Shown here: positions 5,309 to 56,800 of the stretch, piece after piece
Numbering within the stretch: position 1 is the stretch's first letter
Layout of the letters: each line of letters opens with the position of its first letter
Sequence record: PP761450.1
Length of the DNA stretch: 64,000 bases
Strand: one strand, 5' to 3'
Source: Escherichia phage LHE287
Position numbers and translations under genes: made by a program
The notes under the pieces: model-generated
Databases searched by the model: none
Told to the model about the DNA's origin: nothing
Seen by the model: the letters and a program-made list of their open reading frames with translations, nothing else

Positions 5309-5548
5309 TTAACTGATGTGCTTCAGAAGAGCGAAGAGGATCGCGGCCTTGGCCTTTACCTTTCCTACGATGCCTGTTTCGACATCAACTTCTTCAGCAA
5401 CCCACTCTTTTCCCTTCTTGCTGATGATAACGTCACGACGCTGTGCGTAGACTTCTTTGGTCGCATACACACGGCGGAACCCTTTAGCGCGGAGCAATCC
5501 CCAATTGCGATCAATTTCTACTGAGGTTTCTACCATTTTGTTCTTCAT
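5309..5548 (-). CDS. hypothetical protein
   Basis: 79-aa ORF; upstream AAGGTAAG...TTATATC-ATG. Confidence 0.45.
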   Translation of the reverse strand: MKNKMVETSVEIDRNWGLLRAKGFRRVYATKEVYAQRRDVIISKKGKEWVAEEVDVETGIVGKVKAKAAILFALLKHIS

Positions 5549-5599
5549 GATATAATCTTACCTTTCAACCCGGTGAACCCATCGTTCGCCAGTTATTGA

Positions 5600-5629
5600 A
5601 TAATACGCATTTACCTTATAGAAGTAAAC
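5600..5629 (-). promoter_or_regulatory. candidate sigma70/T4-early-type promoter (GTTTAC-N18-TATTAT)
   Basis: Minus-strand -35 GTTTAC (5624-5629) and -10 TATTAT (5600-5605), upstream of gene starting at 5548. Confidence 0.4.
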
Positions 5630-5640
5630 CCCTAAAAGTA

Positions 5641-5667
5641 AAAATCCCCAACAAACGTTGGGGATTT
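5641..5667 (-). terminator. rho-independent terminator
   Basis: ccccaac/gttgggg stem followed on the minus strand by TTTTTACTTTT; downstream of gene 5682..5906. Confidence 0.55.
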
Positions 5668-5681
5668 AATAAAAGTTATGC

Positions 5682-5906
5682 CTATTTAATTTCTCGGCTT
5701 GAATTTTCTAGTTCTAATTTTCTTATAGCGGAAATTCTGCCTTCATCAGTTGCGGGAAACTCCCAAACAGCACGACGCCCATTGTTGGTATCACAACTTG
5801 CCAGCCAGCAGAAATTAGAGGGGTCCTTAAACAAGACCAACTTCGGATTTCCTAAATTGATGAGGTTAAACGGGGTGAGGTCAACAACACATGATATAGC
5901 AGACAT
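5682..5906 (-). CDS. hypothetical small protein flanked by the two repeat copies
   Basis: 74-aa ORF, ATG with AGAAGG RBS. Confidence 0.4.
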   Translation of the reverse strand: MSAISCVVDLTPFNLINLGNPKLVLFKDPSNFCWLASCDTNNGRRAVWEFPATDEGRISAIRKLELENSSREIK

Positions 5907-5951
5907 AACATATACCTTCTTTCAATGAACGGGAACGCCCCGATCTATGAA

Positions 5952-6020
5952 TTCAATAATACGCATTTACCTTATAGAAGTAAACCCCTAAAAGTAAAAA
6001 TCCCCAACGTTTGTTGGGGA
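5952..6020. repeat. Direct repeat copy 2
   Basis: Same core as 5596..5667; the hairpin is present with its loop reverse-complemented. Confidence 0.7.
5956..5985 (-). promoter_or_regulatory. candidate sigma70/T4-early-type promoter (GTTTAC-N18-TATTAT)
   Basis: Same element as 5600..5629, upstream of gene starting at 5906. Confidence 0.4.
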
Positions 6021-6022
6021 CT
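5996..6022 (-). terminator. rho-independent terminator
   Basis: ccccaac/gttgggg stem plus U-run directly after the stop of the ACP-like gene. Confidence 0.5.
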
Positions 6023-6026
6023 TCTG

Positions 6027-6350
6027 TTATTTGCGCAGGGCAACCACGAGTTCAGCGAGTTCACCCATGGTCGGGTCGTCGCCTTTACTACCTAGCCACC
6101 CGTCGTCGATTTCGACCTGAAACTCTTCTTCGAGGTCCATTACAATTTCGATAGCGTCCAGTTCATCACCGCCGAGGTCTTTCTTGGTACGGAGGCCAGC
6201 CAGCTTGTCCAGGGCGTCCTCGTTCTGAGATGCCACGTCGTCCAGCAATTTGCGCTTGTCATCGTCACGCCACAGATCCATATTCAGATTGTCAGTGGCG
6301 TACTGAGCCAGATGACGCATGACTTCAACATATGTTGGCTTACTGCTCAT
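6027..6350 (-). CDS. acyl-carrier-protein-like protein (Ser-to-Glu at the phosphopantetheine site)
   Basis: KDLGGDELDAIEIVMDLEEEFQVEIDD aligns with E. coli ACP [27 protein letters not shown] (from memory); the conserved Ser is Glu here. Confidence 0.6.
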   Translation of the reverse strand: MSSKPTYVEVMRHLAQYATDNLNMDLWRDDDKRKLLDDVASQNEDALDKLAGLRTKKDLGGDELDAIEIVMDLEEEFQVEIDDGWLGSKGDDPTMGELAELVVALRK

Positions 6351-6369
6351 GCTACTTCTCCCAAAGAAA

Positions 6370-6385
6370 GGCGGGTTGCCCCGCC
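6370..6385 (-). terminator. GNRA-loop hairpin plus U-run after the vWA gene
   Basis: ggcggg-ttgc-cccgcc; minus strand shows a GCAA loop followed by TTTCTTT. Confidence 0.45.
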
Positions 6386-6392
6386 CGTTGGA

Positions 6393-8594
6393 TTAGATTT
6401 TGATTTCTTTCTCTGTCAGTTCGGCAGTGACCTTGTACTTCACGCCATCCACTTCAACTTCCATGGTGGACTCTTCCAGGTCGAGGTCGGTGAACCAGCC
6501 GTGGCCAGCAACGATACCATACACCACTTTAGACAGTGTCTTGTTCAGGGCACGGACTTCGGTGATGGCCGCCTTGGCAGCAGCGTCGATCCAGTTTTCG
6601 ATCAGCTGTTTCTGTAAGGCTTCAGGCACGGCAGTGATCATAGGAGACTTCACGAATGCTTCGTACTCTTTCAGAGCATTGGCGATGAACAAGTCACCAG
6701 CATTGAGTTTCTTGTTCTCTGCGATCTTCTTCTGTACTGCCGCGATGCTCGGTAGTGAAGACGCCCCGGCGATCTTCACGTTCAGCTCACGGCTCATGTA
6801 GAAGTCGGTAGACTCTTTGGTCTCAGTCTTCGGTGAGAAGCCGTAATCGCGGATGCCGTAGGAGGACAGGAACTCGGCCGCCTCAGCGCCGTACTGTACT
6901 GCCAGGCCTTTGGCGTTACCCTTACCAACCAGGGCGTCTCGATAGAACTTCAGCACCTTCTGCTTGCCTTTCAGGGCTTCCAGACGGACATTATCCGCAA
7001 AGAACTGAGCAGCACTGATGTTCTTGACCATGGCGCGGTTGACCAGCGGTACGCTTTCCAGGTTCAGGACAAACACTTCCGGGCCACCAAACACGTGGAC
7101 GCCCATTTCGATCAGCTTCTGTACAACTTCGATATCAGCCTTGAACGGCAGAGTCTTCACGTTAATGATACCGTCTTTGACGATGGTGTAGTTGCGCCAC
7201 TGGAAAGTATCCAGTTCTTCAGGCAGGCCAAACTTCTTCTGTGCGAATTCAGGCACAGCCACAGTACCGTGTTGAATTGTACGCACACTGATGTTCGGGC
7301 GCTCGGAGTTATAGACCAAATCACTGATTGGCACAACACCCAGATCGTTGGTAGGTTCGAACGTCGGGTTCCACTCTTCGTGTTCTGCCAGCTTGAGAGC
7401 CAGGGCTTTACGCTCTTCTTTGGACTGAGCATTCGCGATCTGTTCTGCCAGCTTGTCTTCGGTGTCGTCGGTTTTCTGCACAGTACCGCGCCCGATACTC
7501 TTATAGGAGAACATCGGATGCTTGGTAGCAACAGGTACACCAGCTTCAGCCAGGTACGTCAGCACATCAACGACGGTGGTCGCATCTTCAGCCGGAACCA
7601 GGTCATAGTCAATACCGTCAACGCCGCGCAGCTGGTCGTCAACAATCGCCTGAACCAGATCGTTCTTGATGTTGGAGTAGTCCTGCTTGGTGAAGCAGTT
7701 GCTGTACTGTTTGATGAAGCGAACGTCGCCCGTCTTCTTCAGCGCAGCCCAAACCAGATCTGCGTCCATAGTGTGTACACCGTAGAACGCCAGCACGTAT
7801 GCCGCCTGGATGTCCGTCAGGCTATCCATCTGGTCGATCATGTTAGGGTTTACAACCCACAGCTTGGTGACGCTCTCAGGGATGCTCACATAGCCGACCG
7901 GGTGAGAGTCATCGTCCTGCACCGCCAGTACTGTTGCCACACCGTTTTCGACGTAGATGGCATGGGTGTAGATGACTGGGACATCAACTTTCACCTTCGG
8001 CACTGATGACTTCAGCACGTTTTCCAGTTCGGTCTGGTATTCGGTCTGACCTTCGGCAAACACATGAGTCGCGCCAGAGCGCTCGGACATCAGAGCCAGC
8101 AGTTCGCGGTTACAGTGCCAGCCGTATTCGATGAAAGTAATGTTATCGAACGCAGAAGGCAAGGTTTCGGCGACGGCCAGGATTTCGTTTGAGCGCCAGC
8201 AGTTGTCATAACCATCGGTCATGAATGCCAGGTTGTTGACGTAACCAGGTTTCTTCAGGTCACGCGCAGTATCCATCGCCAGTTTCAACGGCTCAACGAA
8301 GCCAGTACATCCGGACGGTTGCAGGAAGCGATCGATCAGTTTGTTCAGCTCGCTCAGGTCAGACGCAGCACTAACCTGGCGGCCAGCGAACACAGTACCA
8401 AAGTCGCCTTTGGAGGAGAAATACAGAACGCTCACAGTGTCTTCCGGTTTCACCAGGGAAGGCAGGTTCTCCTTCAGATGCTTACGGACTTCAGGGAGCG
8501 CACGGTACATAGAGCCGGAAATGTCTACAACGATTACATGGTTGGACGGGGTAGCAGTCGCAACCGCATTCTTAAATTCTAATGATTCAATCAT
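6393..8594 (-). CDS. von Willebrand factor A (vWA) domain protein, 733 aa
   Basis: N-terminal MIDAS-like VVVDISGSM...TDG; start taken at MIESLEF (8594) with AAGGCGAAGAG RBS. Confidence 0.7.
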   Translation of the reverse strand: MIESLEFKNAVATATPSNHVIVVDISGSMYRALPEVRKHLKENLPSLVKPEDTVSVLYFSSKGDFGTVFAGRQVSAASDLSELNKLIDRFLQPSGCTGFVEPLKLAMDTARDLKKPGYVNNLAFMTDGYDNCWRSNEILAVAETLPSAFDNITFIEYGWHCNRELLALMSERSGATHVFAEGQTEYQTELENVLKSSVPKVKVDVPVIYTHAIYVENGVATVLAVQDDDSHPVGYVSIPESVTKLWVVNPNMIDQMDSLTDIQAAYVLAFYGVHTMDADLVWAALKKTGDVRFIKQYSNCFTKQDYSNIKNDLVQAIVDDQLRGVDGIDYDLVPAEDATTVVDVLTYLAEAGVPVATKHPMFSYKSIGRGTVQKTDDTEDKLAEQIANAQSKEERKALALKLAEHEEWNPTFEPTNDLGVVPISDLVYNSERPNISVRTIQHGTVAVPEFAQKKFGLPEELDTFQWRNYTIVKDGIINVKTLPFKADIEVVQKLIEMGVHVFGGPEVFVLNLESVPLVNRAMVKNISAAQFFADNVRLEALKGKQKVLKFYRDALVGKGNAKGLAVQYGAEAAEFLSSYGIRDYGFSPKTETKESTDFYMSRELNVKIAGASSLPSIAAVQKKIAENKKLNAGDLFIANALKEYEAFVKSPMITAVPEALQKQLIENWIDAAAKAAITEVRALNKTLSKVVYGIVAGHGWFTDLDLEESTMEVEVDGVKYKVTAELTEKEIKI

Positions 8595-8802
8595 TGTTCT
8601 CTTCGCCTTGTGCGTAAGGGTTAAGTTCAGACTCATCAGCGGCTTCGATGCGCGTCTTTACAGAGTCCAGCATATTGTTGATAAATTCACGAGACTGCTC
8701 CAGCTGAGCCAAGAGCACATCCTTTGGAGCATAGTTCTGAATGCAAGCCGGAATACTTTCAGACGTCGCCTTCAGGTCGGTAAAACATTCTTTCAGTATC
8801 AT
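8587..8802 (-). CDS. hypothetical protein
   Basis: 71-aa ORF ending 8 nt inside the vWA start. Confidence 0.4.
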   Translation of the reverse strand: MILKECFTDLKATSESIPACIQNYAPKDVLLAQLEQSREFINNMLDSVKTRIEAADESELNPYAQGEENND

Positions 8803-8880
8803 TTGATCTCACTTAACAGAGACGACGCCCTGTTGGGATTTAATAGCGGTCTTCACAGGCATCAGGTTTCCCTCAAAACA

Positions 8881-8896
8881 GGGGAGTTGCCTCCCC
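8881..8896 (-). terminator. GNRA-loop hairpin after the NAMPT-family gene
   Basis: ggggag-ttgc-ctcccc; followed on the minus strand by GTTTT. Confidence 0.45.
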
Positions 8897-8904
8897 TTCG
8901 GTTA

Positions 8905-10569
8905 TCAGATTTGTGAGGCCAGTTCTGTCACCAGAGGAGCGGCACGAACACGCGCATCTTCCAGTGTTTGAGTATTGAAGAACTCGCCATCACGATACAC
9001 CAGCTGGTGCTGGTTGTCGGCGTCTTGCACCTGATCAAAGGTGATACCGTCAACCAACACTAGTTTACCCTGAGAGTCTTTAATGACTTTAAGGAAACCA
9101 CGCGCAGACTTTTTAGTCCCGCCTTTATCGGTCTTCGGCTCTTTGAAGATCTCACGGAATTCACCGTTCACTTTACCAGCCGTGGCTTTCACTGCTGTGC
9201 CAGTACTGTCACGGGTGTTCATCTGGTAGGTGTAGGAACCGATACCGAACACCACGTTGATGGAAGCGAAGTTCCGGTCAGCCAGACGGCTAAAGATCTG
9301 GTCTTCACGCGCCAGGGTGATAGAATCACCGTAGATCAGGCCGATGTGCTCATCCAACAGGAAGTGCCCAGTTTCAGTCTGGGTGCCACCAAAGATCTCC
9401 CACAGGCGCTGGATAGAGCCGACCGCTTCTGAACGGCTGATGATATTACGGTCATCTACCATCAGAGAGTTGATCGTGCCTTCGCCTGTGATCAGGTGAT
9501 AGGTGTTCGTCTCTTCGATGTGGATAACTTCGGTGCTGCTAGACACGCCGCTGATGTTCAGCGTAGCGCGGTCTTTGAACCCCTCGATGCGGTAGCCGCC
9601 AACGATGTGTACAGGGTCGCCCGAGTCGGGGCGAATCACGACTTTACCATTGCGCGCCATGATAATGTCTTTCAGGCGAGGCAGATAGTCGTCGATGACC
9701 TGCCAGTAATCCCACGCATCAGACACGATGCTGACGATGCCATCAGGATACACGTCCTGCACCAGGCGGCGGAAGGTTTCGAATTCGCCATCCTTCGTGC
9801 CCATACACATCACCGCATGTTCCGTTGCGGCAACCGACCCAGCAACGACATAGTCTTCGTCGATGTCTGCGCCATAATACTCTTCTACGAAGTCCAGGGC
9901 AGGGTTGGTATCGGTGCCTTTGAAGAACACCAGATGACCGGAACCGGAAGACGCGGCATCATGCCACCCGCTCATACCACGAAAGGAGAAGTCGTGGCCT
10001 TGGTAGTCGATGAACCAATGGTCCGGTGATACTCCCGTAGCGAGGGCAGCTTTCACCATCAGTGCCTTGTAATGCAAAGCTATGGTGGCGTTCGTCATCG
10101 GCTTCCAGATCTCAGAGCTGAACACAGTCTCCAGATAGTTGGTCAGCCAGTAGAACTCCGGCAGGGTATTGAACATCACATACACCGGAACGCCATACGG
10201 GCACATGGTACCTTCAGGCAGCGCGCGGACTTCGATAGGCAGGTAGCCGAGGTCATGCAGGGCTTCAATATGCTCTGTGCCGACGCGGCCTGGACCCAGG
10301 ACTTTGTTCATGCGACGGGCATACTTCTTCAGCACCTTGGCCTTCGGGCGCTGGAAGAATGCTTCGTCAAACAGTTCGTGGAACCAGGTCATGAAGCCCT
10401 GGATGCCCCAGACCACCACGCCGTTCTTCGGCAGGTGAGAGTTGAACAGTTTGTTAGAGCGCGGAGTTCCGTTGGAGAACACCAGCTCACTGCCTTCAGG
10501 GAACTGATAGATGTGCCCCGATTTGTAGAAGTCGATCGCATGGATTGGGTCTAAGTGGCGCATGCTCAT
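8905..10569 (-). CDS. nicotinamide phosphoribosyltransferase family protein (NadV/Namat-like)
   Basis: 554 aa with NAMPT-like sequence throughout (DFYKSGH..., GSVAATEHAVM, IRPDSGDP); stop/start overlap with upstream gene. Confidence 0.85.
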   Translation of the reverse strand: MSMRHLDPIHAIDFYKSGHIYQFPEGSELVFSNGTPRSNKLFNSHLPKNGVVVWGIQGFMTWFHELFDEAFFQRPKAKVLKKYARRMNKVLGPGRVGTEHIEALHDLGYLPIEVRALPEGTMCPYGVPVYVMFNTLPEFYWLTNYLETVFSSEIWKPMTNATIALHYKALMVKAALATGVSPDHWFIDYQGHDFSFRGMSGWHDAASSGSGHLVFFKGTDTNPALDFVEEYYGADIDEDYVVAGSVAATEHAVMCMGTKDGEFETFRRLVQDVYPDGIVSIVSDAWDYWQVIDDYLPRLKDIIMARNGKVVIRPDSGDPVHIVGGYRIEGFKDRATLNISGVSSSTEVIHIEETNTYHLITGEGTINSLMVDDRNIISRSEAVGSIQRLWEIFGGTQTETGHFLLDEHIGLIYGDSITLAREDQIFSRLADRNFASINVVFGIGSYTYQMNTRDSTGTAVKATAGKVNGEFREIFKEPKTDKGGTKKSARGFLKVIKDSQGKLVLVDGITFDQVQDADNQHQLVYRDGEFFNTQTLEDARVRAAPLVTELASQI

Positions 10570-11420
10570 TTTACACGTCCTGTATTTTCAGTTTTGAAAG
10601 GGAGCCCGTCGGCGGTGATGTTCTCCCACCAGACGGTGTCGGCATACACAGCATCATAGATCCCGTCGAAAACAGAGAGACCTTTGCTGAAGATGCCATG
10701 GGTAACGAAGAGCGTCATGTGCTTAGGCTTGTGCTTCTGAAGCTCTTTGCCTAACTCAACGAACGTGCGCCCACCGTCGCAGATATCATCGACCACCACC
10801 AGATAGCGGTCTTTGATCAGTTCAGGGTTTGTAACACTCACCCCAATGATCTCACCAGTCTTGGTGTCACGGTTCTTGTGACCGTAGACAACAGGAACAC
10901 CGTCCAACGACAGGCTGAGGGCTTCGGTCTTCTTAGCCGCGCCGCCGTCAGGGGCTACCAACACAGCGTTGTTCCCACGGATGAACCAGCCCAGATACTG
11001 ACGCACGATGTAATCTTGCGGGACAACATGGACGTTGTTGATCAGAGAAGACACAACATGGCTGTGAGGATCTTTGATCGCCACGCGGTCAAAGTTCATG
11101 CTATTGATGAACTCAGCTGCCCACTTCACAGACAGAGGCTCACCGAAGTCACAATGGCGGTCCTGGCGAGCATACGGGAAGTAAGGGATATACGCATGGA
11201 ATGTCGTCAGACGGTCCACGTTACCCAGACCACGAACGGCGTTTACCAGAAGCGCCAGCTCAATGAAGTCAGCCGATGATTTGATGTGAGCATCAATCGC
11301 CACGTTCTGAACGTGGCCGATAGGGATACCAGACTTTTGAATCTTGATATGTTCCTCACCACCTGGGAAGGTGAAGTGTTTGTAGAACACATCTTGGTCG
11401 TTCAATTTCAAACGAAACAT
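10566..11420 (-). CDS. ribose-phosphate pyrophosphokinase family protein (Prs/Adps-like)
   Basis: 284 aa with type I PRTase/PRPP motif VVVDDICDGGRTF; 4-nt overlap with the NAMPT-family gene. Confidence 0.75.
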   Translation of the reverse strand: MFRLKLNDQDVFYKHFTFPGGEEHIKIQKSGIPIGHVQNVAIDAHIKSSADFIELALLVNAVRGLGNVDRLTTFHAYIPYFPYARQDRHCDFGEPLSVKWAAEFINSMNFDRVAIKDPHSHVVSSLINNVHVVPQDYIVRQYLGWFIRGNNAVLVAPDGGAAKKTEALSLSLDGVPVVYGHKNRDTKTGEIIGVSVTNPELIKDRYLVVVDDICDGGRTFVELGKELQKHKPKHMTLFVTHGIFSKGLSVFDGIYDAVYADTVWWENITADGLPFKTENTGRVK

Positions 11421-12933: not shown

Positions 12934-14952
12934 TTAGAACACAACTTTCACAGTGCGGTTGAACGAACCGCTCACCTTCACGAACACGTGGTTGCGTTGG
13001 GTGGTAGAGAAGCCCAGACCGGACAGCTGCTCAGTGCTTGGCTGTACTTTAATCTTACCACCTAACATTTCAAAAACCTTGCGGTGTTTATCAAGTTCCG
13101 GCTTCAGATATTCGTTATAGAAACCACGGGTGCCGACAGGGTTAGCACAACCTTCCAGGATGAAGAACACGTGCTTGTTGCCAGTCTGCTCGCCGTCCCA
13201 ATGGTTTGGTGAGTTCAGAACCAGCTGTACCTTCTGGAAGACGGAGGTCTTGATGCCCCAGATTTCCTGAGAGCGAGCGTCGTCTTTCAGGGTAGAACTG
13301 ATGTCAACCACCTGACCAGCGCGAACCTGAACCACAACAGCCAACGTGCGATCTTTGTTACCCAGGCCAGGGTGTGAGAAGCGCTTAGTCTGACCTTTGT
13401 ATTCAACTTCGATTTCGAAACCAACGTCACAGGTTTCACGCTTGTTGAAGTTGGTGACATAGAACTCATAATTCCCGTCACGCAACTTGCGTTCATCGCT
13501 AAAGAAGATGTTCTCCACCGGACGGCGGTTTGGATCAATGCCGTCCATACCGTTCATGTCGATGTCCAGAGTTGCGCCAGTTGTCGAACGACGGTTGCGA
13601 AAATATACGTGGTTGTGAAGAGGATCGTTCATGCTCAGATCCAGGTCGTCGTTGTTATGCCAAGCCAGTGACACGCGGAGGAAGCTGTCGACATTGCCGC
13701 CTGCGGTCTTCACGCGCTCTTTGATGGAGTCGGCCACTTCGCCATTGTACGACCAGCTGAAGCCGTTGTTCCACTTGAACAGGTTAGGAGCGCCTGCGGT
13801 AGCCGGAGCGATCAGGGACATCAGGTTGCCAATGTGAGAGTTTTCGACCAGCACTTCCAGGGAATGCGCCTTTGGCAACACGTTGGTCAGGAAGTCGTCG
13901 ATCGTGATCTCTTCAACCTTGTCCAGGGACTTGGTCGGAGTCTTCACTTCAGACGCCAGCTGAGCAAACGGGTCCATCTTCTTCTGAGCTGCCAGATCGG
14001 CGAACAGAACGTTGTTGATGGTCAGATCGTCATACACGGCATAACGGCGACCCAGTGAATCGGTCAGACCCAGCGCTTCGACTTCTTTCTGCGCGTTTTC
14101 AATCATCGACTTCGTGACCAGCGCGGTTGGGCGCTTGTAGTTCGTCGGAGCGACTTTGGCTTCAAAGGACTTCACGGCGGTTTCCAGATCCCGGCCTTCA
14201 TTGAGGTCTACCAGCAGAGAGCCAATCACGGTATTACGAATGCCGTGAGGGGTATGACCGTTTGCACGGTAGCCAGTGCGCCAAGCCCACAGAGCGCGTT
14301 TCTCTTCTGCAGTTTGTTCGTACAGGGTCTTGTTCACCACGAACGCCTGCACTGCCGCTTTGTGCTCTTCACCGCGATACAGAGAATTCTGGTCAATCAA
14401 TTCCAGAACGATTTCAGCCGATTCCAGAGACAGTTCACGCAGGCCGCGCTCAAACACTTCAATCGCCTGGCGGATTTCACCCTTCTTAGAAGCGATGGTA
14501 TCTGCCCGCAGAACATAGCTGCCCAGCAGGTCGGTGTGGAAGTGGTTGTAGGTACGGACAATACCATCTTTCATTTCGTGATTCGACTCAACACCAACTT
14601 TCTTGGTGTCGTTGAAGTACACGTCGACGATTGCGTGCTGCTTAACATATGCTGACAGCGCCGCAGCGACAACGTCGTATTCGTTACCCAGCTGAATGTT
14701 ATCCCAGATAGAGATCACGTTCAGATCGGAGTCGATGGTGACTACACCGCCGATGTTACGGATGAATTGTTTGCAGCAGGTGCAGTCGTGCTCGGTACGC
14801 TCACGATAAAGCGGGTTAGTGCCAGCAGGGAAAGAAGACAGATACAGATCCCACAGAGCATCTTTATCGATGTTGGTCATGAACAGACCAGTTGCTGACA
14901 TGGCCAGCACGTTATTGTTGACAGCTACTGCGAAGGGCTTAAAATCTGACAT
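12934..14952 (-). CDS. hypothetical large early protein (672 aa)
   Basis: Long ORF with AGGAAG RBS; no motif I can assign. Confidence 0.6.
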   Translation of the reverse strand: MSDFKPFAVAVNNNVLAMSATGLFMTNIDKDALWDLYLSSFPAGTNPLYRERTEHDCTCCKQFIRNIGGVVTIDSDLNVISIWDNIQLGNEYDVVAAALSAYVKQHAIVDVYFNDTKKVGVESNHEMKDGIVRTYNHFHTDLLGSYVLRADTIASKKGEIRQAIEVFERGLRELSLESAEIVLELIDQNSLYRGEEHKAAVQAFVVNKTLYEQTAEEKRALWAWRTGYRANGHTPHGIRNTVIGSLLVDLNEGRDLETAVKSFEAKVAPTNYKRPTALVTKSMIENAQKEVEALGLTDSLGRRYAVYDDLTINNVLFADLAAQKKMDPFAQLASEVKTPTKSLDKVEEITIDDFLTNVLPKAHSLEVLVENSHIGNLMSLIAPATAGAPNLFKWNNGFSWSYNGEVADSIKERVKTAGGNVDSFLRVSLAWHNNDDLDLSMNDPLHNHVYFRNRRSTTGATLDIDMNGMDGIDPNRRPVENIFFSDERKLRDGNYEFYVTNFNKRETCDVGFEIEVEYKGQTKRFSHPGLGNKDRTLAVVVQVRAGQVVDISSTLKDDARSQEIWGIKTSVFQKVQLVLNSPNHWDGEQTGNKHVFFILEGCANPVGTRGFYNEYLKPELDKHRKVFEMLGGKIKVQPSTEQLSGLGFSTTQRNHVFVKVSGSFNRTVKVVF

Positions 14953-15066: not shown

Positions 15067-16290
15067 TTATTCAGGTTTCTTCAAACGGTCCAGCAAATTG
15101 ACGGAACCACGTTTGAGAACGACTTCATCACAGCGCTTTTTGTATTCCCCACCGCCGTCATAGCTGACCTTGCCCCGAGGTTTTTCACCGCGCCCAACCG
15201 CCTCAACACAGCGAGTGTACTTGCTCAGTTCACAGAACATGTTCTCCAGCTGCATAACGTTCATGCACTGATCTACAGGCTCTTCAGCCGACCAGAATTG
15301 CTCACGAACATACCCATATTGGGAATACACCGCGTCCTGATTGTCCCGCAACCAGAAGATGCATTCTTCATGCGTCATGCCATCTTTGTCCTGGAACATC
15401 AGATCAATCCCTGCGCGACAGCCTGGTCCAGCAACCGTGAAGTGGTTCTCACTGAAAGGATATCCAGGAATGTACGTGAAATCAACCCAGATCTGGTAGG
15501 CCAGGAATGGACCAAGCCCTTCGATGTCGTCATACATGCGCTGGTATACTTCCAGAGGAGTACCAAGGCGCAGCAAGTCATGGAAATAGTTTGGATACTT
15601 GTTGACGAATGCCTTCAGGGAGCGGATGACACGCATTGGCATGTACGGTTCCCATCCCTCGATGGTATATTCACCAGGATTCTCTTCGACCAGCTTCTTG
15701 GCGACCTTGTAGTCCATCTCTTCCACAATACCCTGGCCAACACGATACACTTTCACCATCATCCCACCGAAGCGCTGCTCCTTGTGGTTGACAACCATCT
15801 CAGGGAAAGCCAGGCATTGTTTCAGGCCGCCCGTGTTGAAGGCATTGGTGAATACCTTACCACCGTCGGCCTCGAACTTCTGAAGTCGTTCGCGGGTTGC
15901 ATCGAGGTTGATCTCGGCGAATTCTTTGATCGTCATCGCGCCGCCGATAGCCTGGATTGGATCCCAGAGGTTGAACATGCGGAACAACACGCAGTTGAAC
16001 ATCTTGTCGGCCATACCCAGAGCATCATTCTTGGCGATGTTGTTGATCAGGTTGAGAGACTGCCTGTCGTGCTCTCTCCGGACGTTACAGAATTTAACCT
16101 GGCGTAATATGGGATTATCAGTCCAAGGAGCAGGAAGGCGCTGGACGTCCTTCTTGACGTGGATCTGATAACGATCGCGCATCCATTCGTAAGACAGGCA
16201 GGTATGGGTCGGACTGAGAACCGGTTTGGCCGACTTTATCTTTTCTTCACGGACACCGCAGTACGGGACGTCCAGGGCTTTATCTTTCAT
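15067..16290 (-). CDS. hypothetical protein (407 aa)
   Basis: Long ORF with AGAGGA RBS. Confidence 0.6.
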   Translation of the reverse strand: MKDKALDVPYCGVREEKIKSAKPVLSPTHTCLSYEWMRDRYQIHVKKDVQRLPAPWTDNPILRQVKFCNVRREHDRQSLNLINNIAKNDALGMADKMFNCVLFRMFNLWDPIQAIGGAMTIKEFAEINLDATRERLQKFEADGGKVFTNAFNTGGLKQCLAFPEMVVNHKEQRFGGMMVKVYRVGQGIVEEMDYKVAKKLVEENPGEYTIEGWEPYMPMRVIRSLKAFVNKYPNYFHDLLRLGTPLEVYQRMYDDIEGLGPFLAYQIWVDFTYIPGYPFSENHFTVAGPGCRAGIDLMFQDKDGMTHEECIFWLRDNQDAVYSQYGYVREQFWSAEEPVDQCMNVMQLENMFCELSKYTRCVEAVGRGEKPRGKVSYDGGGEYKKRCDEVVLKRGSVNLLDRLKKPE

Positions 16291-53859: not shown

Positions 53860-56800
53860 TTATGTATAAGATGTCTCTGATATGGATATCGCCACTGTTT
53901 TAGACCGCGATGGTGTGCTTCTGTTTACAAAATACACGGTGTGTGTTACCCCCATATCCGCATTTAGTTGGTAGTACTCAGCCCCATAAGGTACTCTGTA
54001 ACTCAGAGGGTGCACAGCAGAAGCTGTTAATGCGCCTGAGTAATTGGGTGCGGACGGTTTTGCGTTCAGGAAGTTATACCATATGGACACTCCGGATACA
54101 GAACCGGTATTGGGCGCTACGCAACTCTTGTCTATGATGCCAGTGTAGATGTTGGCAACCGCGCCGCATTGAACAAGAACAGAACCAACGCCTTTAAGGA
54201 TGGCTCCTTTAAGGTACGCTGGATAGTTACTTGACATGCACGCAATCGTGCAAGACACAAAAGTATCATTTATTGACTCTAAGCCACGGGTGTTATTGTT
54301 TATAGACGTAGACTTGACGAGATAGGCGCAGTCCACATCGTTGAACACATTTGACTCAATATCTAATCTAAAGTTTGTAGATATAGTCACACATGCAACC
54401 ATAACCCCTAAATGAATGTTTCTGAATTTACAATTTTTAATGCTTACACTACGTGTACCCTGTACGTAACCAAAAACTCCAGCAACACCCCCGTTTATTA
54501 GCGCGGTTACTGTACTAGGGAGGTACAGGTCCGCTGTTTTTGTGAAATCTACTAAAGAAGTATAATCAATAGCGGCCCTGCTCTCGTTATAGTAGAACTC
54601 ACAGTCATCAAGATAAATTCTTTGCGTCGGGGCGGACACGAAACCAGCCCAACCGAACGGTTTGGAACCTGTATCATATAAATTAACACAACCAGACGAA
54701 GGAGTGCCAGCACCCCCTACGTAGTAAAACTTATTCCTGCGTAGGTCTACTGTGTAGCTTACCGTATTCTCTATCCCGGCAGATAATCTAATAGTGTTGT
54801 CAGTAAATTGGTTAAAAATAACCCCCAGATTCGTCAAACTGTAACACTCTATGTTGTTATTGGAGATAATATTACCTTTGTTAAAAGCGTAGTCCCCAAT
54901 ACCATGTCGGGCATTTACTTTGTTACCGGTAGCCACGTTGTAATCACAATGAGTGTGGAAGATAAGCCCCCAGTGATATCCTGAAGTAGCTTCTCCATTG
55001 ATTACATTACCAGTAAATACGTTACGGCAGCAGTTCTTAAAGACGATTAGCACTGCATCTTTAATTACCTCTGGAGTAACAAAGCTGTTATTAGAGAAGG
55101 AGTTATGATAACAGTTCCAGGACAACATGAAGGTGTACCCAATATCCAGCGTGTTATTCTCAACCTTGTTAAAGTTAGAGAAGTAACTAATCTCTGGATA
55201 ATTTAAACGACCAGTGCAGTTAGAAATACCACCTCCATAGTTCCTACGGAATCGTAAAACGCCGTCGGTATCTGCCGTACCAGTATTTTCATCTATAAAA
55301 TGGATATTTCTAAAGTGTGCGTGGTTTACCTCGGAGTACACAATAGCGGTAGCTCCAGGAGCAGAAAAGTTGGGCGTTATATCGAGATACGCACGACTAT
55401 TTATGCTGTCATATTTAATCACCTTGAACAGGCAGGAGCGAAGCGTTCCAAAATTGGCGTCATCCTTTGATAGCGACATTATATCTATGGTGTTTGCCGT
55501 AGCAGTTTCTGCGGCCATAACATAGTCAGTTTTACCGTTGGTGATTTCCAGGTATTTCCCTGTCAGGTCCACAGAAGAACTAACCCACGGTTGGTTGTAA
55601 ACTAAATTTACACTCTGTGTGGTGGAAGTGGATGGGCTTGTAAAGAATATTTTTGCACCATCAGCTATTCTAAGAGATGCTTTTATCCTTGCTTTGAATT
55701 CTCCAATACCAAGAGGTAGGGTTATGCTAGTGGCAATGTATGTCGTAGTATAGTCCGGCAGGATGACATATTTAAGGTCGTTAGCCATAGCCTCGATAGC
55801 TGCGGAATCGTCAGTGATGCCGTCGCAAACCGCTCCGTAATCAAGTATGGTTTTCAATTGCTCTAACTGCTCAGCAATAGTCCTGCTAACTGTTCCATCC
55901 CCTTTATTTTTGTTTCCTATGATACTAGCTCCAGAGTTCGAAGCCAGATCGCTTCTTAAGGAAGTATCCCCAACACTAATCCACGCGCCCGAACCTTCCC
56001 CACCAGTTGTCGAAGGGGTTGAACCAGCAGAAACTTCTTTAGGTAATGCACCATCCCAACGGTACTTGCCATCAGTAAAGACAACCAGTTCATTCTTGGT
56101 ATTAACTGTTACACCGGTATCAAATGACCCGGACAATGTGACGTACTCTTCACGAGATACAGCCAATTCCCCGAGATCTACAGAACCCGCTGAATGTACA
56201 AGTACAGCGGAAGAACTAAGACTGACAGCAGTAGTACCAGGGACAATATCAGCAGGCAAGGGATAAGCCCTTTGCGTCTCCTTGTCATAAATAACTTTAT
56301 ACCCACTTAACGCAGCACCAACACTAAAATAAACGACCTCTGTATCTTTAACATTGGTCACACGAGCAACTTCCCGCAAAGTATAATCAATTTGATTATA
56401 GATGTTTGGTGTTCCATTGATAATTACAACAACTTCATCCTCCGGTTCCAGTTCTTGCGCAAGAGTGATTTTACTGGTTAATGGATCGAATGTGAATCCC
56501 AGATTTTTATACTGGCGACTTCCGTTTATATCAATGGCCGGAACATCATCAACAACGACGTCCAACGTGATTTCGGTTTCACCACCAATCGCTGAACCCC
56601 CATTATAGACCCAAGTAATCGTAGAAGAACTAGAACCACCGCCATTACCCAATTGAATAGGAGTATATTCAATCACCTGAAGTTCTGTGTTAGCTGGCAA
56701 AGAAGGACTGAAAGTGATTACATTCCCATCTAGTGAATATTTAGATTCCGCAAGACGTTTCCCATCAGCATACACGTCCACGATTGTTGGTGGAGTATTG

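What the first reader, a model, noticed from the sequence alone, without database searches (positions are those of the whole stretch)
6393..8594. 733-aa early protein with an N-terminal vWA/MIDAS domain
vWA domains in phage early regions are uncommon and usually act with AAA+ partners, but no MoxR-like ATPase is adjacent here. The 600-aa C-terminal region has no motif I can assign. The gene sits directly upstream of the Ser-less ACP-like gene, and the two are probably co-transcribed.
Basis: partly seen in the sequence, partly recalled or inferred. Interest (0 to 1): 0.4.

Follow-up and report, generated by a model that had tools for sequence, protein, structure and literature searches.

The report
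Conserved phage vWA protein, function unknown
This is a real, expressed and very widely conserved gene of large bacterial viruses. It encodes a metal-dependent protein-binding module fused to a 410-residue region of unknown fold, it has no fixed partner gene, and its function is still unknown.

Summary
The ORF is real: minus strand, 6393..8594, 733 aa. The window comes from an Ackermannviridae phage, 97% identical in DNA to Escherichia phage AV101.

The family is PHROG 2426. It has about 1,000 clusters at 50% identity, all 680-825 aa, almost only in large lytic phages.

No MoxR ATPase lies in the 64-kb window or beside 45 divergent homologues. No neighbour is conserved across lineages.

The ACP-like gene follows after 42 nt, but that spacer holds a terminator-like hairpin. 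The linkage exists only inside Ackermannviridae.

"Early" is unproven. The local block lacks the late-promoter-like motif, yet the Bacillus phage AR9 homologue has a mapped late promoter.

Best reading: a cytoplasmic, non-virion, MIDAS-dependent adaptor that works without a dedicated ATPase. Its target is unknown.

The parts
6393..8594 (-). Complete CDS of the vWA protein: 733 aa plus the TAA stop at 6393-6395.
   Evidence: ORF list. The start is supported by the PHROG and homologue alignments. Escherichia phage AV101 carries a 99.2% identical protein.
8007..8546 (-). vWA (Rossmann-like alpha/beta) domain, residues about 17-196.
8511..8525 (-). MIDAS motif D24-I-S26-G-S28.
   Evidence: Translates to DISGS. 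D, S and S are kept in 257, 256 and 257 of 259 relatives. The motif aligns with the DxSxS of ArnB-type chain 8s05.
8304..8306 (-). MIDAS threonine T97, within GCTGF.
   Evidence: Kept in 259 of 259 relatives.
8214..8216 (-). MIDAS aspartate D127, within FMTDGYDN.
   Evidence: Kept in 259 of 259 relatives.
7848..8006 (-). Beta-sandwich, residues about 197-249. The N-terminal strand (residues 3-6, within 8547-8594) probably adds to it.
7635..7847 (-). Helix bundle, residues about 250-320.
6396..7634 (-). Family-specific C-terminal module, residues 321-733. It is a confidently modelled alpha/beta region with near-invariant N434, W700, D597, D474, K546, R432 and R467. Its helical segments 516-580 and 616-700 are basic.
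8587..8802 (-). Upstream 71-aa ORF whose stop overlaps the vWA start (ATGATTGA). Translational coupling is likely. The ORF is specific to Ackermannviridae.
   Evidence: Matches phrog_20065.
6369..6386 (-). GC-rich hairpin GGGCGGGGCAACCCGCC followed by TTTCTTT, in the 42-nt spacer between the vWA stop and the ACP-like start. It looks like a terminator or attenuator.
6027..6350 (-). Downstream ACP-like gene (107 aa) with Glu in place of the phosphopantetheine-attachment Ser. It is a neighbour; it is not shown to be a functional partner.
   Evidence: Pfam PP-binding and phrog_4154. Alignment with E. coli AcpP. Distribution limited to Ackermannviridae.

Best explanation
The gene encodes a soluble, cytoplasmic, non-virion protein of large lytic phages.

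[quoted passage not shown] The conserved 410-residue C-terminal module supplies a second, family-specific activity or binding surface.

The protein works on its own as an adaptor or scaffold. It is not the co-factor of a dedicated MoxR-type AAA+ ATPase, and it does not require the ACP-like neighbour.

Shown here:
- the fold of residues 1-320;
- conservation of the MIDAS site;
- absence of a linked ATPase or of any other conserved neighbour;
- fixed architecture across the family and restriction to phages;
- translation of the orthologue, and only a trace of it in purified virions.

Inferred, not shown:
- metal-dependent binding of a protein ligand;
- cytoplasmic action during infection;
- that the C-terminal module carries a separate function.

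The identity of the target, host or phage, is unknown.
For: - **MIDAS site.** The five residues are kept in at least 256 of 259 full-length relatives spanning down to about 30% identity.
- **Selection on the whole protein.** There are 996 representatives at E<=1e-30. The best 150 are all 680-825 aa, and 131 of them match in one stretch over nearly the whole profile; the other 19 match in two.
- **Autonomy.** The only AAA hit in the 64-kb window is the clamp loader. No MoxR family appears among the 25 families listed (of 63) for 115 flanking proteins from 45 lineages. No neighbour cluster is shared across lineages. Many homologues are flanked by genes on the opposite strand, and AR9 g068 has its own promoter.
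- **Cytoplasmic and non-virion.** pI is 5.1 and there is no hydrophobic segment. CsCl-purified Sajous1 virions gave 1 spectrum for this protein against 924 for the major capsid protein, the same level as dUTPase and the clamp loader. AR9 g068 is not among the proteins annotated as virion proteins.
- **Phage-restricted.** Only 12 loci were found in 185,579 species genomes, and most are phage-like contigs.
Against: - No ligand, metal binding or phenotype has been measured for any member of the family.
- "Adaptor" is a generic role. The near-invariant polar residues of the C-terminal module (N434, D474, K546, D597, R432, R467) could equally mark an enzyme active site.
- The AR9 homologue has late kinetics, which would also fit a role in assembly.
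- Without AFDB searches (library unavailable), a known fold for residues 321-733 cannot be fully excluded.
Confidence: 0.4

Rival explanations
1. Counter-defence or host-takeover factor. The protein binds and neutralises a conserved host component, such as an immune sensor or effector. It would belong with the anti-defence genes beside it.
For: - The two genes upstream, Prs-like at 10566-11420 and NAMPT-like at 8905-10569, have the gene order and annotations of the NARP1 NAD+-reconstitution operon (bioRxiv 10.1101/2024.02.11.579819).
- In KP15 the gene lies in a block of accessory genes that starts after an NMN adenylyltransferase/Nudix gene.
- Other loci carry a cytosine methylase, RlaP, RNA ligases or NAMPT nearby.
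- The family is phage-restricted and sits among lineage-variable accessory genes.
Against: - NAD-pathway genes lie within 8 kb in only 4 of 47 lineages.
- There is no PADLOC hit, though that library holds defence models, not anti-defence ones.
- The hosts range from Bacillus to Proteobacteria and Actinobacteria, so the target would have to be almost universal.
- Known anti-defence proteins are usually small and patchily distributed. They are not 730-aa core genes with a fixed architecture.
Confidence: 0.15
2. Late-acting assembly factor or minor virion protein. The vWA module would help build the tail or head, or be packaged in low copy number.
For: - AR9 g068 reads 0.96, 106 and 431 FPKM at 5, 20 and 40 min, and it has a mapped late promoter (PMC5312081).
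- Some database records label homologues "minor tail protein".
- MoxR-vWA systems help virion assembly in other viruses (PMC7824862).
- One spectrum was found in CsCl-purified Sajous1 virions.
Against: - A single spectrum, against 924 for the capsid protein, is at the level of contaminants.
- AR9 g068 is not annotated as a virion protein although its neighbours are.
- In this window the gene sits in the replication and nucleotide-metabolism block. All six copies of the late-promoter-like motif CTAAATAC lie between 22 and 57 kb, and none lies near the gene.
- PHROG 2426 carries no structural annotation.
Confidence: 0.15
3. Co-factor of a MoxR-type AAA+ ATPase supplied in trans, either a host RavA-like ATPase or an unlinked phage one. 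This would resemble ViaA, CbbO, NorD or BchD.
For: - Many prokaryotic MIDAS-bearing vWA proteins work with MoxR partners (established knowledge).
Against: - No MoxR gene lies in the 64-kb window.
- None appears among the families listed for 115 flanking genes in 45 lineages.
- AR9 has a separate AAA-plus-zincin-vWA pair (g028/g029), and g068 is not next to it.
- The closest structural relatives (ArnB, vWA2, 4fx5) are not MoxR partners.
Confidence: 0.1
4. In Ackermannviridae only, a two-protein unit with the ACP-like neighbour. The Glu or Asp that replaces the phosphopantetheine Ser at the tip of ACP helix II would be the acidic ligand that completes the MIDAS site.
For: - The two genes are adjacent in 23 of 24 Ackermannviridae-type loci.
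- The Ser36 position is Glu or Asp in all 20 distinct orthologues.
- MIDAS sites typically take a Glu or Asp from the ligand (PMC6509490).
- Both proteins were detected by mass spectrometry in Sajous1.
Against: - Synteny within one phage family applies to nearly all its genes, so it carries little weight.
- The ACP-like gene is absent near the vWA gene in 52 other loci.
- It is absent from about 230 vWA-positive phage records at tblastn E<=1e-3.
- No analogous small acidic gene follows the vWA gene in other lineages.
- A terminator-like hairpin separates the two genes.
- No complex prediction could be run.
Confidence: 0.08

Closest known systems
ArnB / vWA2 (Sulfolobus acidocaldarius; PDB 5A8J, 8S05) and Caci_2163 (PDB 4FX5)
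   Different: - Sequence identity is only 11-16%.
- The phage protein carries an extra 410-residue C-terminal module.
- No ArnA-like FHA/zinc-ribbon partner, kinase or phosphatase was seen next to it.
- The biology differs: archaellum regulation there, lytic phage infection here.
PHROG 2426, annotated as "VWA domain-containing protein" in Ackermannviridae, Slopekvirus (KP15 gp100), RB43-like phages, pf16 and AR9 g068
   Same: It is a full-length member: E = 0, with profile positions 2-736 of 736 matched. It is 99.2% identical to the Escherichia phage AV101 protein.
   Different: Nothing differs. The family itself has no assigned function.
MoxR-vWA chaperone pairs (RavA-ViaA, NorQ-NorD, BchI-BchD; the jumbo-phage MoxR + zincin-vWA pair)
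   Different: - There is no adjacent or window-wide MoxR gene.
- The domain context is different.
- In AR9 the MoxR-linked vWA gene (g029) is a separate gene from the homologue g068.
Sec23/Sec24 trunk, beta-barrel and helical core; other intracellular eukaryotic vWA scaffolds (TFIIH p44/Ssl1, Rpn10)
   Different: There is no zinc finger and no gelsolin-like domain was detected. No Ku structure appears among the 60 listed matches.

Membership tests
vWA superfamily with MIDAS | Sequence profile match to the vWA domain | tested here: met
   PF00092 scores 30.8 bits against a cut-off of 23.8. 36 of 42 relatives hit VWA_2.
vWA superfamily with MIDAS | Rossmann-like alpha/beta vWA fold | tested here: met
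vWA superfamily with MIDAS | Complete MIDAS motif: DxSxS, then T, then D | tested here: met
   DISGS, T97 and D127 are present and kept in at least 256 of 259 relatives.
vWA superfamily with MIDAS | Metal-dependent ligand binding | not testable with these tools
   This needs biochemistry.
ArnB/vWA2/Caci_2163-type tripartite vWA proteins | vWA domain joined to an eight-stranded beta-sandwich, including N-terminal strands that precede the vWA domain | tested here: inconclusive
ArnB/vWA2/Caci_2163-type tripartite vWA proteins | C-terminal four-helix bundle after the sandwich | tested here: met
ArnB/vWA2/Caci_2163-type tripartite vWA proteins | Partner FHA/zinc-ribbon protein (ArnA) and phospho-regulation | tested here: not met
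   No FHA, kinase or phosphatase family is among those listed for the window or for flanking genes. Phosphorylation itself is not testable here.
MoxR-vWA chaperone systems | MoxR-class AAA+ ATPase gene adjacent or in the same operon | tested here: not met
   The only AAA hit in the window is the gp44 clamp loader. Neighbours within 12 kb are annotated otherwise. No MoxR family is listed for 115 flanking proteins from 45 lineages.
Ku70/80-like | vWA domain followed by a DNA-encircling beta-barrel ring | tested here: not met
PHROG 2426 | Full-length profile match | tested here: met
   E = 0, 1229 bits, residues 15-747 matched to profile positions 2-736 of 736.
   The ACP-like gene is linked in 23 Ackermannviridae-type loci and in none of 52 others. 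It is found in 271 phage records against 503 for the vWA gene.
Virion structural protein | Abundant in purified particles | tested here: not met
   Sajous1 gave 1 spectrum against 924 for the capsid protein (PMC10892097). AR9 g068 is not annotated as a virion protein.

The most novel reading that the evidence does not exclude
Probability: 0.25. Interest if true: 0.6.

Novelty: new variant of a known kind. Interest (0 to 1): 0.33.

Why it matters
This is one of the larger protein families of big lytic phages that still has no function. It occurs in Ackermannviridae, several T4-like genera, PBS1/AR9-type phages and metagenomic jumbo phages. Its architecture is rigid and its metal site is invariant, so it does something these phages need.

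Knowing the MIDAS ligand would show either a new way of controlling the host or a shared step in the biology of large phages. Many of the carriers are therapy candidates against Salmonella, E. coli O157 and Klebsiella, so an uncharacterised 80-kDa core protein is also a gap in their safety annotation. One paper files it under "Virulence" and another discusses possible virulence links, in both cases only because of the vWA label. Nothing found here supports that reading.

Tried and rejected
- **Pfam vRNAP_dom hit at residues 637-685.** E is 0.027, below the cut-off, and it appears in only 1 of 42 members, so it is treated as chance.
- **Role in thymidine hypermodification.** A 5-hmdU DNA kinase lies 6.5 kb away. 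However, the published gene set that reconstitutes 5-NeOmdU in extracts contains no vWA protein (PMC8989533).
- **Link to NAD+ salvage genes.** Such genes lie near the vWA gene in only 4 of 47 lineages.
- **Conserved small partner upstream or downstream.** None exists outside Ackermannviridae.
- **Defence-system membership.** No PADLOC hit.
- **Bacterial homologues with informative context.** Only 12 loci were found in GTDB genomes. The one inspected, in Achromobacter, looks phage-like.
- **T4-type late promoter TATAAATA.** It is not enriched in the window.
- **Fusions to other domains (Rosetta stone).** The best 150 library hits show none.

Full report
**Where the window comes from.** Megablast of 5500-9000 finds Escherichia phage AV101 at 96.9% identity, then other Agtrevirus, Kuttervirus and Limestonevirus genomes. 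The annotated relative Shigella phage Gloob is classed as Ackermannviridae. Nearly all genes in the window are on the minus strand.

**The ORF.** The mechanical ORF is 6393..8636 on the minus strand, 747 aa.
- The PHROG 2426 profile aligns from residue 15 of the long form.
- The consensus of 42 homologues begins at that Met.
- The ATG overlaps the stop codon of the upstream 71-aa ORF as ATGATTGA. This suggests translational coupling.

The gene is real. tblastn finds it in 503 phage records, and 488 of them cover at least 80% of it. A profile search of 1.84 billion representative proteins finds 996 hits at E<=1e-30. The best 150 are all 680-825 aa; 131 match in one stretch over nearly the whole profile and 19 match in two. 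The Kuttervirus orthologue, Sajous1 gp185, was detected by mass spectrometry (PMC10892097).

**The N-terminal domain.**
- Pfam VWA scores 30.8 bits against a curated cut-off of 23.8.
- An AlphaFold2 model built from 42 sequences has mean pLDDT 86.9.
- The MIDAS residues are D24-I-S26-G-S28 (8511-8525), T97 (8304-8306) and D127 (8214-8216).
- In 259 full-length relatives aligned to the family HMM they are kept in 257, 256, 257, 259 and 259 sequences.

**The remaining 410 residues.**
- The viral structure library returns only members of the same family.
- A profile search of PDB sequences finds only vWA hits.
- Scanning 42 members against Pfam at E<=1 finds no recurrent family other than vWA.
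- The region is nonetheless strongly constrained. N434 is kept in 259 of 259 relatives and W700 in 257. D597 is D or E in all 259. D474, K546, R432 and R467 are each kept in 247-251.
- The most conserved stretch is residues 581-615. Helical segments 516-580 and 616-700 are basic, while the whole protein is acidic (pI 5.1) and has no hydrophobic segment.
- The AFDB library was not available, so "no known fold" holds for PDB and BFVD only.

**Distribution.**
- The carriers are Ackermannviridae (about 269 records at 60% identity or more), Slopekvirus (KP15), RB43-like T4 relatives, Pseudomonas phage pf16, Rhizobium phages and Bacillus phage AR9 at 26% identity.
- Metagenomic jumbo-phage contigs of 200-500 kb also carry it.
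- A scan of one genome for each of 185,579 prokaryotic species found only 12 loci. Most are phage-sized or phage-like contigs.
- The family is therefore essentially confined to large lytic phages.

**Partners.**
- No MoxR-type ATPase lies within 12 kb.
- In the whole 64-kb window the only AAA hit is the gp44-type clamp loader.
- I clustered the ORFs of 76 related loci. Beyond Ackermannviridae, no neighbour cluster is shared across lineages.
- 47 lineages are distinct at 80% identity. In many of them the gene is flanked by genes on the opposite strand.
- Pfam scanning of 115 flanking proteins from 45 lineages gave a mixed bag. It contained transglycosylase, DNA polymerase B, RecA, RNA ligases, RlaP and HNH. 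No MoxR family was among the 25 families listed out of 63.
- NAD-pathway genes lie within 8 kb in only 4 of 47 lineages.
- AR9 carries a separate AAA plus zincin-vWA pair (g028/g029), and g068 is not next to it. This is the MoxR-vWA pair type noted for jumbo phages in PMC7824862.

The family therefore appears to work without a dedicated, linked partner.

**The ACP-like neighbour.**
- Gene 6027..6350 encodes 107 aa. It hits PP-binding at E 2.8e-5 and phrog_4154 "acyl carrier protein".
- Aligned with E. coli AcpP, its motif reads GGDELD where AcpP has GADSLD. The Ser36 position is Glu or Asp in all 20 distinct orthologues.
- jackhmmer finds the gene directly downstream of the vWA gene in 20 loci, counting Bue1-type L062. 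It lies about 850 nt further in the two 3M-type loci. It is found in none of 52 other loci, and one Ackermannviridae-type locus (L030) also lacks it.
- tblastn finds it in 271 phage records, essentially all Ackermannviridae, against 503 for the vWA gene.
- No analogous small acidic gene follows the vWA gene in other lineages.
- The 42-nt spacer holds the hairpin GGGCGGGGCAACCCGCC followed by TTTCTTT.
- A stronger terminator-like hairpin lies just after the ACP-like gene. It is followed by a sigma-70-like promoter, and both sit inside a 73-nt element present twice.

Co-transcription by read-through is possible but not established. The linkage is lineage synteny.

**Timing.**
- In this window the motif CTAAATAC precedes several structural genes.
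- It occurs six times, always on the minus strand, between 22 and 57 kb. About 1.2 copies are expected by chance, and 0 of 100 shuffles reach six. None of the six lies in the 1-22 kb block that holds the vWA gene.
- No promoter consensus was found between the NAMPT-like gene and the 71-aa ORF.
- This fits non-late expression, but it is indirect evidence.
- The only measured homologue is AR9 g068. It reads 0.96, 105.6 and 431.5 FPKM at 5, 20 and 40 min, and it has its own mapped late promoter with a TSS at 56698 (PMC5312081 Tables S3 and S4).
- "Early" is therefore unproven and may differ between lineages.

**Virion association.** CsCl-purified Sajous1 virions gave one spectrum for gp185 and one for the ACP-like gp186. 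The major capsid protein gave 924. dUTPase, thymidylate synthase and the clamp loader also gave one each. AR9 g068 is not annotated as a virion protein although its neighbours are. The "minor tail protein" labels in a few records have no support.

**Mechanism.** What is shown:
- an ArnB-type module with an invariant MIDAS site;
- a constrained, unassigned C-terminal module;
- soluble, acidic character;
- restriction to phages;
- no linked partner;
- expression of the protein, with only a trace in purified virions.

From established knowledge of MIDAS sites, the invariant site most likely binds a divalent cation and an acidic residue of a protein ligand. Integrin I-domains and midasin work this way, and it has been proposed for ArnB (PMC6509490). 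My best reading, with confidence 0.4, is an autonomous cytoplasmic MIDAS-dependent adaptor or scaffold, whose C-terminal module provides a second binding or catalytic function. The target is unknown.

The rivals are:
- a counter-defence factor (0.15), suggested by the NARP1-like pair directly upstream;
- a late assembly factor (0.15), suggested by the AR9 kinetics;
- a co-factor of an unlinked MoxR ATPase (0.1);
- an Ackermannviridae-specific complex with the Ser-to-Glu ACP mimic (0.08).

**Novelty and score.** The gene is an ordinary member of an already annotated family, "VWA domain-containing protein" or PHROG 2426, that has never been characterised. As a kind of system it is a variant of known vWA/ArnB-type proteins, with a large extra module that has no known fold. 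It is a reasonable target for experiments but not a surprise. Interest 0.33.

Noticed in passing
window 8905-11420 (minus strand): The two genes upstream of the 71-aa ORF are a Prs-like gene (10566-11420) followed by a NAMPT-like gene (8905-10569; PF04095, E 5e-32). Their order and annotations match the NARP1 NAD+-reconstitution operon (Adps + Namat) described in bioRxiv 10.1101/2024.02.11.579819. Substrate specificity (ADPR against ribose-5-phosphate) was not tested.
   Followed up: partly
window 6027-6350 (minus strand); L001-L019, L022, L028, L034, L062: The ACP-like protein carries Glu or Asp at the phosphopantetheine-attachment Ser36 position in all 20 distinct orthologues (DEL or DDL in place of DSL). 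It cannot be a normal acyl carrier, and the acidic replacement is itself conserved.
   Followed up: partly
window 5595-5667 and 5951-6023: A 73-nt element occurs twice, 356 nt apart, at 92% identity. On the minus strand each copy holds a strong hairpin with a T-run, followed by TTTACT-17 nt-TATTAT. It looks like a terminator-plus-promoter cassette flanking a small ORF just downstream of the ACP-like gene.
   Followed up: partly
window 6369-6386 and about 8878-8893 (minus strand): The GC-rich hairpins after the vWA stop (GGGCGGGGCAACCCGCC) and after the NAMPT-like stop (GGGGAGGCAACTCCCC) both have a GCAA tetraloop. They may be a shared RNA-stability or attenuator element.
   Followed up: no
window 22170-57455 (minus strand): CTAAATAC occurs six times, all on the minus strand and all in the 22-57 kb part of the window that holds the structural genes. 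About 1.2 copies are expected, and 0 of 100 shuffles reach six. It is a likely late-promoter core for this phage. The T4 motif TATAAATA is not enriched.
   Followed up: partly
window 12934-14952 and 15067-16290 (minus strand): A 5-hmdU DNA kinase (PF18723, E 3e-81) sits next to a 672-aa protein of PHROG 1735 that has no Pfam family. Some records annotate that protein as "putative DNA-directed RNA polymerase", and no profile search here supported the label.
   Followed up: no
L077 (Bacillus phage AR9) and PMC5312081 Table S4: AR9 encodes two unrelated vWA proteins: g029 (a zincin-vWA fusion next to the AAA ATPase g028, already expressed at 5 min) and g068 (the homologue of this family, late). 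The MoxR-linked and the stand-alone vWA types therefore coexist in one phage.
   Followed up: partly
L020-L031, L039, L052 (RB43/KP15-like and jumbo-phage loci): An RlaP-family nucleotidyltransferase (PF10127, an RNA-repair family) lies about 3-5 kb upstream of the vWA gene in 11 loci from two unrelated phage groups. It was not examined further.
   Followed up: no
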